Of a DNA stretch of 64,000 nucleotides, positions 57,056 through 60,000 are shown one piece after another. How positions within the stretch are numbered: the first letter of the stretch is position 1; each line of letters starts with the position of its first letter. Source of the DNA: Escherichia coli. Its GTDB lineage: Bacteria; Pseudomonadota; Gammaproteobacteria; Enterobacterales; Enterobacteriaceae. The position numbers were made by a program. The DNA lies in assembly GCF_003018255.1 (NCBI RefSeq), contig NZ_CP027440.1; one strand, given 5' to 3'.

Positions 57056-60000
57056 GGCTGCGGCGACGATCCTTTACACCTTTATTGGCGGTTTCCTCGC
57101 GGTGAGCTGGACTGACACTGTACAGGCCAGCCTGATGATTTTTGCCCTGATCCTGACGCCGGTTATCGTGATCATTAGCGTCGGTGGGTTTGGCGACTCG
57201 CTGGAAGTAATCAAACAAAAGAGCATTGAAAACGTGGATATGCTCAAAGGGTTGAATTTTGTCGCCATTATCTCGCTGATGGGCTGGGGACTGGGTTACT
57301 TCGGGCAGCCGCACATTCTGGCGCGTTTTATGGCGGCGGATTCTCATCACAGCATTGTCCATGCGCGTCGTATCAGTATGACCTGGATGATCCTCTGCCT
57401 GGCAGGGGCGGTGGCTGTCGGCTTCTTTGGTATCGCTTACTTTAACGAGCACCCGGCGGTAGCAGGTGCGGTAAACCAGAACGCTGAACGCGTGTTTATT
57501 GAACTGGCGCAAATTCTGTTTAACCCGCGGATTGCCGGGATTTTGCTGTCGGCGATTCTGGCGGCGGTAATGTCAACGTTAAGTTGCCAGCTGCTGGTAT
57601 GTTCCAGTGCGATTACCGAAGATTTATACAAAGCGTTTCTGCGTAAACAGGCCAGCCAGAAAGAGCTGGTGTGGGTAGGGCGAGTGATGGTGCTGGTGGT
57701 GGCGCTGGTGGCGATTGCGCTGGCGGCAAACCCGGAAAACCGCGTGCTGGGCTTAGTGAGCTACGCGTGGGCAGGCTTTGGCGCAGCGTTTGGTCCGGTG
57801 GTGCTGTTCTCGGTGATGTGGTCACGCATGACGCGCAACGGTGCGCTGGCGGGGATGATCATCGGTGCGCTGACGGTTATCGTCTGGAAACAGTTCGGCT
57901 GGCTGGGTCTGTACGAAATTATTCCGGGCTTTATCTTCGGCAGTATCGGGATTGTAGTGTTTAGTTTGCTGGGTAAAGCGCCGTCAGCGGCGATGCAAAA
58001 ACGCTTTGCCGAGGCCGATGCGCACTATCATTCGGCTCCGCCGTCACGGTTGCAGGAAGGGTAAGGGACTTAGCCTGCGGCGGTTTTGTTTGGCTTCAGC
58101 AGCGGGTTGCGCTCCCTTAATGTGCCTCGCCATATAAATTGAATGGTGCAGGGAGCGCGCAGGGGGCGGCCAATCGCCGCCGCCCCCTGCACCCCCGGGC
58201 TCTGGCGAACAAAATCGCCGCTGCGCGGTACCTTCAGCTTATCCCCTTCGGCTACCGGGTCGGGCGCGAGGTAACGTCCTGTAAGACGCGCCCTCAGCCC
58301 ACATCCATGTGGGCTGCCCCGGCCTTCGGGGAACGCTTCAGCGATTTTGACGCCACCAACACCCGAGCTGTTATTATGTTCCGGGCAAAAAGTTAGATTT
58401 GATAATCGCGGATGGACGAAATTGCTTGATACACCCGCTTATCAGTTTTACATGGAAGCTCTGATGCATTGAGTCTGGACAGTTTTGTCGGCTGGATAAG
58501 GCATTTACGCGGCATCTGGCAAGAACACATGGCTCGTTGTAAACAATCCCATCTTTGTACCTGGAATAATCGTTTATATCCCCTGGCATTACCTTTCTTT
58601 GTTTACATTCCAACATCATTTTATAAACATTCTGCTTGTATTTTTCTTTACCGTAATGATAATCGCTATCACTGCGATTTACTTTTCTTTGCATAGATTG
58701 ACTCAGAAAAACGTTTAAGGGTGGGTGGCATGTTTGTTCCGTTTCTCATTATGTTGCGCGAAGGACTTGAAGCCGCGCTGATTGTCAGTTTGATTGCCAG
58801 CTATCTTAAGCGTACCCAGCGAGGCCGATGGATTGGTGTGATGTGGATTGGCGTGCTGTTTGCCGCTGCGTTGTGCCTGGGCTTGGGTATCTTCATTAAC
58901 GAAACCACCGGCGAATTTCCGCAAAAAGAACAGGAACTGTTTGAAGGTATCGTGGCGGTGATCGCCGTGGTGATCCTTACCTGGATGGTTTTCTGGATGC
59001 GCAAAGTGTCGCGCAACGTCAAAGTGCAACTGGAACAGGCAGTCGATAGCGCATTGCAGCGTGGAAATCATCATGGCTGGGCGCTGGTGATGATGGTCTT
59101 TTTTGCCGTTGCAAGGGAAGGGCTGGAGTCGGTCTTTTTCCTGCTGGCGGCGTTTCAACAAGATGTCGGGATCTGGCCGCCGCTGGGTGCAATGCTCGGT
59201 CTTGCTACAGCCGTGGTGCTCGGCTTCCTGCTCTACTGGGGCGGTATTCGCCTCAATCTTGGTGCATTTTTTAAATGGACCAGCCTGTTTATTCTCTTCG
59301 TCGCCGCAGGGCTGGCGGCTGGTGCCATTCGCGCATTTCATGAAGCCGGATTGTGGAACCACTTTCAGGAAATCGCCTTCGATATGAGTGCGGTGCTCTC
59401 AACTCACTCGCTGTTTGGCACGCTGATGGAAGGGGTTTTTGGCTATCAGGAAGCGCCGAGCGTCAGCGAAGTCGCCGTCTGGTTTATTTATCTCATCCCG
59501 GCGCTGGTGGCATTTGCTCTGCCACCACGCGCAGGGGCGACAGCGTCTCGCTCCGCGTAACAAATACGACGCAAACTCTTGCTTAGTTACAACATACTTT
59601 AAAGGGATAGTCTCGTCATGACCATTAACTTCCGCCGTAACGCATTGCAGTTTAGCGTGGCTGCGCTGTTCTCTTCTGCTTTTATGGCTAACGCCGCTGA
59701 TATTCCGCAGGTCAAAGTCACTGTGACAGATAAACAGTGCGAACCGATGACCATTACGGTTAACGCCGGGAAAACACAGTTCATTATTCAGAACCACAGC
59801 CAGAAGGCGCTGGAGTGGGAGATCCTCAAAGGCGTGATGGTGGTGGAAGAGCGGGAAAATATCGCCCCTGGTTTTAGCCAGAAAATGACGGCGAATTTAC
59901 AGCCTGGCGAATACGATATGACCTGCGGTCTGCTGACTAACCCGAAAGGGAAGTTGATCGTCAAAGGTGAGGCAACGGCGGATGCGGCGCAAAGTGATGC

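What the first reader, a model, noticed from the sequence alone, without database searches (positions are those of the whole stretch)
58080..58400. GC-rich palindrome-bearing element downstream of putP, family unassigned
In an otherwise AT-rich putP-efeU intergenic there is a roughly 250-bp GC-rich block with a 12-bp-stem hairpin (58159..58190) and a 22-bp perfect palindrome cagcccacatccatgtgggctg (58294..58315). It is not a canonical REP and has no credible ORF; the 85-aa track ORF 58139..58396 has no plausible start context. It could be a dispersed repeat (box C or RSA-like), a terminator module or a small structured RNA.
Basis: seen in the sequence. Interest (0 to 1): 0.35.

Follow-up and report, generated by a model that had tools for sequence, protein, structure and literature searches.

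The report
TRIP1b repeat, a replication risk sequence
The GC-rich block after putP is a full-length copy of TRIP1, a known E. coli repeat recently renamed RRS, whose two other copies fold up during DNA replication and leave programmed single-strand gaps; it is a known element, not a new one.

Summary
A 270-bp GC-rich block (58106-58375) carries a perfect 12-bp hairpin and a 10+10 palindrome, which sits one base to the right of the coordinates given.

The family can be assigned. This is TRIP1b, the putP-efeU member of the TRIP1 repeats (Rudd 1999; Li 2024). TRIP1a and TRIP1c are the Replication Risk Sequences RRS-lysO and RRS-dusC (Pham 2023, 2024). Their G-quadruplex strand stalls lagging-strand synthesis and leaves post-replication gaps.

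K-12's TRIP1b has a 124-bp internal deletion. The window carries the undeleted form, found in 17% of complete E. coli genomes, with the published G4 motif intact (58177-58196, minus strand). GC skew and synteny place that motif on the leading-strand template, the weaker orientation.

It is not box C, REP, a terminator or a gene, and it matches no Rfam family.

Across 42 copies from Escherichia, Klebsiella, Citrobacter and Pseudocitrobacter, 25 of 64 predicted pairs show compensatory changes, including a long-range helix. G4 potential is lost in Citrobacter. To my knowledge this has not been reported.

The element is already known. Whether this copy is active is inferred and untested.

The parts
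58106..58375 (+). Full-length TRIP1b repeat (an RRS-type element), given in the orientation of putP. The C-rich 'RRS-C' strand is the + strand.
   Evidence: It starts 41 nt after the putP stop (58064), as published for TRIP1b. It maps onto K-12 TRIP1b 1080855-1081000. It is 89-94% identical over 265-283 nt to the copies at lysO-aqpZ and dusC-yohP.
58109..58158 (+). Helix P1: GCGCTCCCT (58109-58117) pairs with AGGGAGCGC (58150-58158), enclosing a variable internal region.
   Evidence: I9. In alignment A3 this is columns 16-22/59-65; 3 of 7 pairs show compensatory changes.
58159..58190 (+). Hairpin P2: perfect 12-bp stem with an 8-nt loop.
   Evidence: I6. In A3 this is columns 67-76/89-98; 8 of 10 pairs show compensatory changes, including within E. 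coli (GGAGGA/TCCTCC in L002 and L024).
58177..58196 (-). G-quadruplex motif GGGGGTGCAGGGGGCGGCGG, identical to the published RRS G4 sequence.
   Evidence: 20/20 match, the only one in the window, with 0 expected by chance. The motif is as printed in PMC10592627. G4Hunter score is 2.3.
58204..58354 (+). Long-range closing helix P3: CAAAATCG 58210-58217 pairs with CGATTTTG 58342-58349. It extends to GGCG 58204-58207 with CGCC 58351-58354. It encloses P4-P8.
   Evidence: I3. In A3 this is columns 118-125/253-260, with CG/GC, AU/CG and CG/UA exchanges. The extension reads GGCG/CGCC in E. coli, GGCC/GGCC in Klebsiella and CCGGC/GCCGG in Citrobacter.
58218..58228 (+). Triloop hairpin P4: CCGC-TGC-GCGG.
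   Evidence: A3 columns 126-129/133-136; 3 of 4 pairs are compensatory, with variation inside Klebsiella and inside Citrobacter.
58262..58293 (+). Hairpin P7: GGGCGCG...CGCGCCC, with an inner 3-bp stem.
   Evidence: The outer 4 pairs are invariant. The inner pair 182-191 alternates GC/AU.
58295..58316 (+).
   Evidence: I7. In A3 this is columns 206-214/219-227; 3 pairs are compensatory (CAGCCCAC, CAGCCCGC, GAGCCAGC).
58189..58312 (.). 124-nt segment missing from the K-12-type TRIP1b allele. The deletion lies between CTGC microhomologies and removes the first G-run of the G4 motif and helices P3(5')-P8.
   Evidence: Alignments A1 and A4 and BLAST coordinates. The published value is a '125 bp internal deletion'.
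56556..58064 (+). putP, the upstream flanking gene, co-oriented with the element.
   Evidence: 502-aa ORF; annotation of homologous records.

Best explanation
The block is TRIP1b, the putP-efeU member of the TRIP1 intergenic repeat family. Here it is in its undeleted 270-bp form. TRIP1a (lysO-aqpZ) and TRIP1c (dusC-yohP) are the experimentally characterised Replication Risk Sequences. When the replisome unwinds them, the exposed lagging-strand template folds into a G-quadruplex plus hairpins, the lagging-strand polymerase is blocked, and it re-primes downstream. This leaves a transient post-replication gap that SSB and RecA fill, and the gap has been proposed to relieve topological stress around the Ter domain. 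The window copy keeps the whole foldable unit and the exact G4 motif, so it should be a third element of the same kind. It is inverted relative to TRIP1a, which lies 168 kb away in the same replichore. Its G4 strand is therefore the leading-strand template, and its C-rich strand (the window + strand) is the lagging-strand template. In that orientation the published data predict weaker gap formation, or none detectable in vivo. Shown here: the identity, the intact motif, the conserved fold and the relative orientation. Inferred: the direction of replication (from GC skew and K-12 synteny) and any activity of this particular copy. The copy is internally deleted in about 48% of complete E. coli genomes and absent in about 34%. 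It is therefore most likely a dispensable, decaying paralogue and not a required RRS.
For: Identity: the position matches, 41 nt after the putP stop, and the copy is collinear with K-12 TRIP1b. It is 89-94% identical to TRIP1a/c over 265-283 nt. TRIP1 is explicitly equated with RRS in PMC10592627. The G4 motif matches 20/20 at 58177-58196 on the minus strand, and the same motif is present in K-12 TRIP1a and TRIP1c. RRS function is published: RecA/SSB peaks, polymerase blocks, ectopic copies that work, conditional essentiality and supercoiling effects (PMC10287960; PMC10592627). With RRS-C on the lagging template, gaps form in about 66% of encounters in vitro and are about 325 nt long (PMC13308219). 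Orientation: GC skew of the window + strand is positive (+0.019 over 63.6 kb). TRIP1a of the same strain (L050) is the K-12 type, inverted relative to TRIP1b, and its G4 strand is on the G-skewed strand. Fold: ssDNA MFE is -78.7 and -80.9 kcal/mol (z -6.8 and -7.0), against -37.1 (z -3.3) for the K-12 deleted form. 99.3% of cells are paired and 25 of 64 pairs are compensatory, against 1-5 in the slid controls. Population: the full-length form is in 944 of 5426 genomes, and full-length plus K-12-type together in 3560.
Against: No experiment has addressed TRIP1b. The RRS papers treat it only as 'a third partial repeat'. In vivo, inverted RRS gave no RecA or SSB peak, so this copy may be functionally silent. 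It is not part of the symmetric pair about 650 kb from dif. Its frequent deletion or absence argues against a required role. The replication direction is inferred from a weak skew signal and K-12 synteny, not read from the origin and terminus of this strain; the matching record starts inside a prophage. The fold is maintained by compensatory change even in Citrobacter, where G4Hunter falls to about 1.1, so the G4-centred mechanism may be incomplete. Across loci, orientation relative to local GC skew is not consistent: the G-rich strand is on the G-skewed strand in only 2 of 11 Klebsiella loci (a noisy proxy).
Confidence: 0.6

Rival explanations
1. A selfish or neutral dispersed repeat, like REP, BIME or REPIN. 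On this reading, its fold is needed for its own spread (recognition as folded ssDNA by an unknown enzyme) or is kept by intrastrand templated correction, and the copy has no host function at putP.
For: Copy number varies from 1 to 10 in E. coli and reaches 13 in one Klebsiella chromosome. Different genera carry it at different loci. The same E. coli intergenic region holds it in either orientation in different strains: dusC-yohP and lysO-aqpZ, with 4028 against 896 genomes. Klebsiella copies sit next to REPs and occur in tandem. Citrobacter copies form tail-to-tail inverted doublets, 63-68% identical over about 600 nt. The element lies next to at least one gene 3' end in 34 of 35 loci, with no preference for sense or antisense, as REPs do. 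TRIP1b is deleted or absent in most genomes.
Against: There are no terminal inverted repeats and no target-site duplication. Occupied and unoccupied alleles differ by replacement of whole blocks, not by a clean insertion. No associated transposase or RAYT-like gene was seen. Each E. coli type is fixed at one locus. Two copies have demonstrated host-level effects. A long-range helix with covariation is hard to explain by local hairpin correction.
Confidence: 0.2
2. A structured RNA. On this reading the element is transcribed, either as the putP 3' UTR or from its own promoter, and acts as a folded RNA: a 3' end protector, a processing site or a trans-acting RNA.
For: The multi-helix fold has a long-range closing helix and many compensatory changes. 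RNA MFE z-scores are -5.2 and -6.4. The element is co-oriented with putP and starts 41 nt after its stop. The TRIP1b-bearing allele lacks the canonical putP terminator that the short allele has. G.U pairs are widespread on the + strand at columns 184-189 (31 of 42 sequences) and 105-111 (17 of 42). Li et al. also suggested transcription.
Against: There is no Rfam match and no promoter-like or terminator-like site in or next to the element. Orientation relative to the adjacent gene is sense in 10 loci, antisense in 11 and convergent in 13. Singleton mismatches favour the opposite strand, with 15 A.C against 6 G.U, so the wobble test for strand is inconclusive. No expression data could be examined here.
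Confidence: 0.15
3. A protein-coding gene: the 85-aa ORF 58139..58396.
For: The ORF exists. Fragments of it are sporadically annotated as hypothetical proteins in E. coli and Shigella.
Against: It has a TTG start and no Pfam domain. Only 51 hits were found among 5.8 billion proteins, of very uneven length and coverage, all of the source-named ones Escherichia or Shigella. One-base indels between paralogues break the frame. The substitution pattern is explained by base pairing.
Confidence: 0.01

Closest known systems
TRIP1 intergenic repeats of E. coli (Rudd 1999, Res Microbiol 150:653; Li et al. 2024, Genes 15:236, PMC10888264)
   Same: Same locus (41 nt after the putP stop, upstream of efeU/ycdN), same sequence family and same GC content. 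This is TRIP1b.
   Different: The published TRIP1b is the 146-bp K-12 form with an internal deletion. The window holds the undeleted 270-bp form, present in 944 of 5426 complete genomes. The paper does not describe it as such.
Replication Risk Sequences RRS-lysO and RRS-dusC (Pham et al. 2023 NAR, PMC10287960; Pham et al. 2024, PMC10592627; Kusi-Appauh et al. 2026 preprint, PMC13308219)
   Same: Homologous over the whole unit, with an identical G4 motif and comparable predicted ssDNA folding on both strands.
   Different: It is not one of the symmetric pair flanking Ter. It lies 168 kb on the terminus side of TRIP1a and is inverted, so the G4 strand is inferred to be the leading-strand template. 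It is untested experimentally and dispensable in most strains.
REP / BIME elements
   Same: GC-rich, palindromic, extragenic, placed at gene 3' ends, in either orientation, sometimes clustered. Klebsiella TRIP1 copies are flanked by REPs.
   Different: It is about 270 nt with eight helices and a long-range closing helix, not a 35-nt hairpin. It has no REP consensus. Copy number is a few to about a dozen, not hundreds. No RAYT link is known.
Box C / PIT intrastrand-triplex repeats (PMC4666352)
   Same: GC-rich E. coli intergenic repeat with G and C runs.
   Different: Box C is about 56 bp and is defined by three triplex-forming blocks. TRIP1 has neither that length nor that architecture.
pilE-associated G4 of Neisseria gonorrhoeae
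   Same: The only other described bacterial sequence said to trigger gap formation through a G-quadruplex.
   Different: It is unrelated in sequence, is a short G4 only, and serves pilin antigenic variation.

Membership tests
TRIP1 repeat family (TRIP1b) | Located in the putP-efeU(ycdN) intergenic region, 41 bp after the putP stop codon | tested here: met
   putP ends at 58064. Similarity to the paralogues begins at about 58104-58106. The K-12 coordinates 1080855-1081000 map to 58106-58375.
TRIP1 repeat family (TRIP1b) | Sequence homology to TRIP1a and TRIP1c over the unit (published 84-94%) | tested here: met
   89.9-94.0% over 267-283 nt to the copies at lysO-aqpZ and dusC-yohP. 89.2% over 268 nt to TRIP1a of the same strain.
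TRIP1 repeat family (TRIP1b) | GC-rich (62-65%) with a very stable predicted fold | tested here: met
   GC is 0.64-0.71. RNA MFE is -137.6 and -149.7 kcal/mol.
TRIP1 repeat family (TRIP1b) | K-12-type 125-bp internal deletion (146-bp form) | tested here: not met
   The window copy is undeleted. The K-12 form lacks 58189-58312. This makes it an allele of the same locus, not a different family.
RRS (Replication Risk Sequence) | G4-forming sequence GGGGGTGCAGGGGGCGGCGG on one strand | tested here: met
   Exact match at 58177-58196 on the minus strand. G4Hunter score 2.3.
RRS (Replication Risk Sequence) | [quoted passage not shown] | tested here: not met
   The + strand has positive GC skew and K-12 synteny, so the G4 on the minus strand is inferred to be the leading-strand template. 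It is inverted relative to TRIP1a of the same strain. This is an inference, not a direct reading of origin and terminus.
RRS (Replication Risk Sequence) | One of an inverted pair about 650 kb either side of dif, flanking the Ter macrodomain | tested here: not met
   It is a third copy, 168 kb from TRIP1a in record NZ_AP025214.2, at the K-12 equivalent of 1.08 Mb.
RRS (Replication Risk Sequence) | Triggers RecA/SSB-bound post-replication gaps and blocks DNA polymerases | not testable with these tools
   This needs ssGap-seq or primer extension. Only the lysO and dusC copies have been tested.
Box C (PIT) repeat | About 56-bp unit with three consecutive triplex-forming G/C blocks | tested here: not met
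   The unit is 270 bp with a different architecture. The box C description comes from PMC4666352. No box C reference sequence was aligned.
RSA repeat | 152-bp imperfect palindrome, six copies in K-12 (from my own recollection of Blattner 1997 and Bachellier 1999) | not testable with these tools
   No RSA reference sequence was available. Length and copy number disagree: the unit is 270 bp, K-12 has three copies by publication, and the median here is 3 places per genome.
REP | About 35-nt GCCGGATG...-type hairpin | tested here: not met
   The only REP-like signal is a weak naRNA4 hit at 58490-58526, outside the element.
Intrinsic terminator | GC-rich hairpin followed by a T run | tested here: not met
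   No terminator-like site lies in 58065-58400. The only one in the scanned region is at 58661-58679.
Any Rfam RNA family | Covariance-model match | tested here: not met
   All hits have E>=0.35 and fall far below their gathering scores. Those inside the element are eukaryotic miRNA models matching the hairpin.
MITE / IS-derived element | Terminal inverted repeats and target-site duplication, with clean empty sites | tested here: not met
   The ends GTTGCGCTCC... and ...ACCCGAGCTGTT are not inverted repeats. Alleles with and without the element differ by block replacement.

The most novel reading that the evidence does not exclude
The feature under selection in TRIP1/RRS may be a specific eight-helix intrastrand fold with a long-range closing helix, not the G-quadruplex. 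The fold is kept by compensatory substitutions across Escherichia, Klebsiella, Citrobacter and Pseudocitrobacter, and recognisably in Pantoea. G4 potential is confined to the Escherichia, Klebsiella and Pseudocitrobacter lineage and is lost in Citrobacter. If so, the element acts, or is recognised, as a defined folded ssDNA or as an RNA. Natural E. coli populations would then supply ready-made tests of the 'relief valve' model. One is a full-length, reverse-oriented third RRS at putP in 17% of genomes. Another is RRS-lysO flipped relative to its flanking genes in 16.5%. A third is the tail-to-tail doublets in Citrobacter, which would present the same strand to a fork arriving from either side.
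Probability: 0.35. Interest if true: 0.6.

Novelty: already known. Interest (0 to 1): 0.3.

Why it matters
For genome annotation, this block should be labelled TRIP1b / RRS-type repeat. It is not a gene, a REP, a terminator or an unknown RNA. For RRS biology, the window shows that some E. coli strains naturally carry a third, complete RRS with an intact G4 motif in the reverse orientation. K-12, the strain used in all the experiments, has a crippled copy at this site. That could affect whether the two canonical RRS are essential in such strains, and it adds a 168-kb inverted-repeat pair that can mediate inversions. The covariation analysis indicates that a defined fold is conserved, not only the G-runs. 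This gives a concrete set of helices to mutate when asking what actually blocks the polymerase.

Tried and rejected
- **Rfam:** a scan at E<=10 gave only chance miRNA-model hits on the hairpin.
- **Phage collection:** no match.
- **Box C:** rejected after reading its description. RSA could not be tested because no reference sequence was available.
- **The 85-aa ORF:** the protein search gave only sporadic Escherichia/Shigella 'hypothetical' fragments with no Pfam domain. The Pfam scan of six-frame translations failed on stop codons and was not repeated.
- **Small ORF in Citrobacter copies:** a 22-24-aa frame over P0-P1 is kept, but its substitutions are mostly non-synonymous and are explained by pairing, so it was rejected (reading).
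- **Mobile-element signatures:** no TIRs and no TSD were found. I compared alleles at dusC-yohP, lysO-aqpZ and putP-efeU. Each time whole blocks differ, so no clean empty site exists.
- **Strand assignment from G.U against A.C counts:** inconclusive. G.U pairs that are widespread across the sequences favour the + strand, while singleton mismatches favour the - strand 15 to 6.
- **Orientation relative to replication across loci:** the local GC-skew proxy is noisy and shows no consistent rule.
- **Fur-box 19-mer:** no match at <=3 mismatches.
- **Not attempted:** a covariance model, because the roughly 270-position model was likely to exceed the calibration limit and the MAFFT/RNAalifold counts were already decisive.
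Full report
**Observation**

The window is E. coli. Positions 58065-58730 are 100% identical to strain 2017.09.02CC. putP ends at 58064 and efeU starts near 58731.

Between them, GC content is 0.64-0.71 across 58100-58349, against 0.29-0.48 further on. The 12-bp perfect hairpin at 58159-58190 and the 10+10 palindrome are both present. The palindrome is at 58295-58316, one base to the right of the coordinates given.

The region folds far better than shuffled sequence on both strands. As RNA the z-scores are -5.2 and -6.4. As ssDNA they are -6.8 and -7.0.

**It is a dispersed repeat**

A 280-nt query finds 1-10 places per complete E. coli genome, median 3, in 5425 of 5426 genomes. 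The other copies lie between lysO and aqpZ and between dusC and yohP. Alignment sets the unit at about 58104-58375. K-12's putP-efeU copy lacks 124 nt, corresponding to window 58189-58312, between CTGC microhomologies.

**Things it is not**

- No Rfam family matches at E<=10.
- No promoter-like or terminator-like site lies inside it.
- There is no phage match.
- The 85-aa ORF has only sporadic, fragmentary 'hypothetical protein' relatives in Escherichia and Shigella, with no Pfam domain. One-base indels between paralogues break the frame.
- Box C is the roughly 56-bp PIT triplex motif, a different thing.

**Identity**

A literature search on the flanking genes found Li et al. 2024 (PMC10888264). 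The element is TRIP1, first listed by Rudd in 1999.

- TRIP1a is the aqpZ-ybjE(lysO) copy.
- TRIP1b is the putP-ycdN(efeU) copy, 41 bp after the putP stop. In K-12 it is 146 bp, 'a partial form ... missing an internal 125 bp region'.
- TRIP1c is the yohI(dusC) copy.
- TRIP1d and TRIP1e occur in other strains.

The K-12 coordinates map to window 58106-58375. The window therefore carries TRIP1b in an undeleted, 270-bp form.

A query joining the putP flank to the segment that K-12 lacks is covered at 80% or more in 944 of 5426 complete genomes, or 17%. The full and K-12-type alleles together account for 3560 genomes, so about 2616 (48%) carry the deleted form. The remaining genomes, about 34%, have other arrangements. 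One is a short allele with a canonical putP terminator and no TRIP1 (L052). Another is different DNA downstream of putP, as in O157:H7.

**Known function of the family**

Pham et al. state that their Replication Risk Sequences 'appeared briefly in a 1999 screen ... and designated TRIP1'. RRS-lysO is TRIP1a and RRS-dusC is TRIP1c. The published results are as follows.

- The two 222-bp repeats sit about 650 kb either side of dif and anchor lagging-strand peaks of RecA and SSB on ssDNA.
- They contain the G4 sequence GGGGGTGCAGGGGGCGGCGG on the lagging-strand template, and it blocks Pol I, II, IV and III.
- Ectopic copies create new peaks, while inverted copies give none.
- In vitro, the G4 strand on the lagging template gives a gap at essentially every encounter. 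The complementary RRS-C strand on the lagging template gives gaps in about 66% of encounters, and these are about half as large.
- The authors searched K-12 for the G4 sequence and found no further site. That fits my finding that K-12's TRIP1b deletion removes the first G-run.

**This copy**

The window has the G4 sequence 20/20 at 58177-58196 on the minus strand. Gene order matches K-12 (putA, putP, efeUOB), and the + strand has positive GC skew. I therefore infer that the + strand is the lagging-strand template, the G4 strand is the leading-strand template, and the C-rich strand is exposed on the lagging side.

In the same strain, TRIP1a lies 168 kb away. It is the K-12-type allele, it is inverted relative to TRIP1b, and its G4 strand is on the G-skewed strand, as published for RRS-lysO.

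The published data predict weaker gap formation in this orientation, or none detectable in vivo. No experiment has addressed this copy. Its frequent loss argues that it is dispensable.

**What the comparison adds**

The family is present in Klebsiella, with 13 places in one chromosome deposited as a plasmid. It is also present in K. aerogenes, Citrobacter and Pseudocitrobacter, and recognisably in Pantoea. The wide distribution in enterobacteria is already published.

I aligned 42 distinct copies (A3). RNAalifold predicts 64 pairs in 12 helices, and 25 of the pairs show compensatory double changes.

With the structure fixed, 99.3% of cells are standard pairs. The covariation score is 0.333, against 0.05-0.08 when partners are slid by 1-3 columns. 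The slid controls give 1-5 compensatory pairs against 25.

Several exchanges recur within a genus, so they are not just three clade-level events.

G4 potential is not equally conserved. G4Hunter at the homologous site is 2.05-2.65 in most Escherichia, Klebsiella and Pseudocitrobacter copies. It is 1.25 in two Klebsiella copies (L009 and L034) and about 1.1 in Citrobacter. I found no mention of a covariation-supported fold in the papers I read.

**Strand and molecule**

Base-pair covariation cannot tell the two strands apart, and it cannot tell DNA from RNA. G.U pairs that are widespread across the sequences favour the + strand. Singleton mismatches favour the - strand, 15 to 6. This test is inconclusive.

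Copies lie next to at least one gene 3' end in 34 of 35 loci. They are sense in 10, antisense in 11 and between convergent genes in 13 (crude ORF calls). That pattern argues against a strand-specific 3'-UTR role and resembles the placement of REP elements.

**Mobility**

There are no terminal inverted repeats and no target-site duplications. At all three E. coli loci, alleles differ by whole-block replacement, not by clean insertion.

Both orientations occur at one locus. At lysO-aqpZ, the K-12-type allele is in 4028 genomes and the flipped allele in 896. dusC-yohP is flipped in AGR5151 relative to K-12. Li et al. also report both directions.

**Verdict**

This is a known repeat, correctly seen and wrongly left unassigned. 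The identification as TRIP1b / RRS-type is near certain. RRS-like activity of this particular copy is an inference of moderate confidence.

The residual novelty is threefold: the intact third copy in a minority of strains, the natural orientation variants, and the evidence that a defined fold is conserved, not just the G4.

Noticed in passing
window 58490-58526: A degenerate REP-like hairpin (GGCTGGATAAGGCATTTACGCGGCATCTGGCAA) lies 115 nt downstream of TRIP1b. It gives a weak naRNA4 (RF02564) hit at 21.2 bits, E 0.35, far below the gathering score. The K-12 version is closer to the REP consensus.
   Followed up: partly
L052:401-619 (E. coli FDAARGOS_497), compared with window 58065-58600: A short putP-efeU intergenic allele is present in about a fifth of the sampled rows (span 320 nt). 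It has no TRIP1 and no REP remnant, but it has a canonical putP terminator (GCAGAGGGCAATCAGTGATTGCCCTCTGCGTTTTTT). The TRIP1b-bearing allele has no such terminator.
   Followed up: partly
L003:2999-3266 compared with L006:2516-2783; L002:3013-3280 compared with L007:2122-2389: The RRS-lysO/TRIP1a and RRS-dusC/TRIP1c elements occur in opposite orientations relative to their flanking genes in different E. coli strains, with different adjacent sequence. At lysO-aqpZ the K-12-type allele is in 4028 of 5426 complete genomes and the flipped allele in 896. The RRS function is published as orientation-dependent, so this deserves attention.
   Followed up: partly
L010, L017, L019, L020, L027, L038 (Citrobacter), about 600 nt around each match: In Citrobacter the unit is followed, tail to tail, by a diverged inverted second unit. 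Self-complementarity is 63-68% over about 520-610 nt. A T-rich spacer (TTTTTATTTGAATAT...) sits at the centre, so the pair forms a giant quasi-palindrome.
   Followed up: partly
L008:2018-2302 and 2455-2739; L040-L045 (Klebsiella pneumoniae): Klebsiella carries many copies: 6 loci with the exact pattern in ATCC 13883 and 13 places in CP125156.1. They are often bracketed by Klebsiella REPs, and one pair is a tandem 437 nt apart downstream of pcaC. Local GC skew puts the G-rich strand on the C-skewed strand in 9 of 11 loci, which is a noisy proxy.
   Followed up: partly
window 58721-59560: efeU is an intact ORF here (279 aa from GTG, 276 aa as annotated in relatives). In K-12 it is annotated as a pseudogene.
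   Followed up: no
window 58374-58694, minus strand: A 106-aa ORF overlaps the AT-rich efeU upstream region. Its counterpart is annotated as a 'hypothetical protein' (WP_001323669.1) in some RefSeq genomes and not in others. It is probably a spurious call.
   Followed up: no
window 58400-58409 and 58657-58666: TGATAATCGC is an exact direct repeat 257 nt apart (D7). The second copy sits in GTAATGATAATCGCTATCAC just upstream of efeU and looks like a Fur-box core. The 19-mer Fur consensus has no match at <=3 mismatches.
   Followed up: partly
L048:1749-2900 (E. coli O157:H7 Z1769): In O157:H7, a hypothetical-protein gene on the opposite strand follows putP in place of the TRIP1b-efeU arrangement, and efeU lies elsewhere.
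   Followed up: no
L016, L021, L047: Near-identical Klebsiella-type or Escherichia-type TRIP1 copies turn up in MAGs labelled Desulfacinum, 'Proteobacteria bacterium' and Sporobacter termitidis. This is most simply enterobacterial contamination or mis-binning of those MAGs. L015 (Lachnospiraceae) is a chance pattern match.
   Followed up: no
one search hits H42, H44, H46, H53: Several PLSDB 'plasmid' records of 4.8-5.4 Mb are evidently chromosomes deposited as plasmids. This inflates the apparent plasmid occurrence of the repeat.
   Followed up: no
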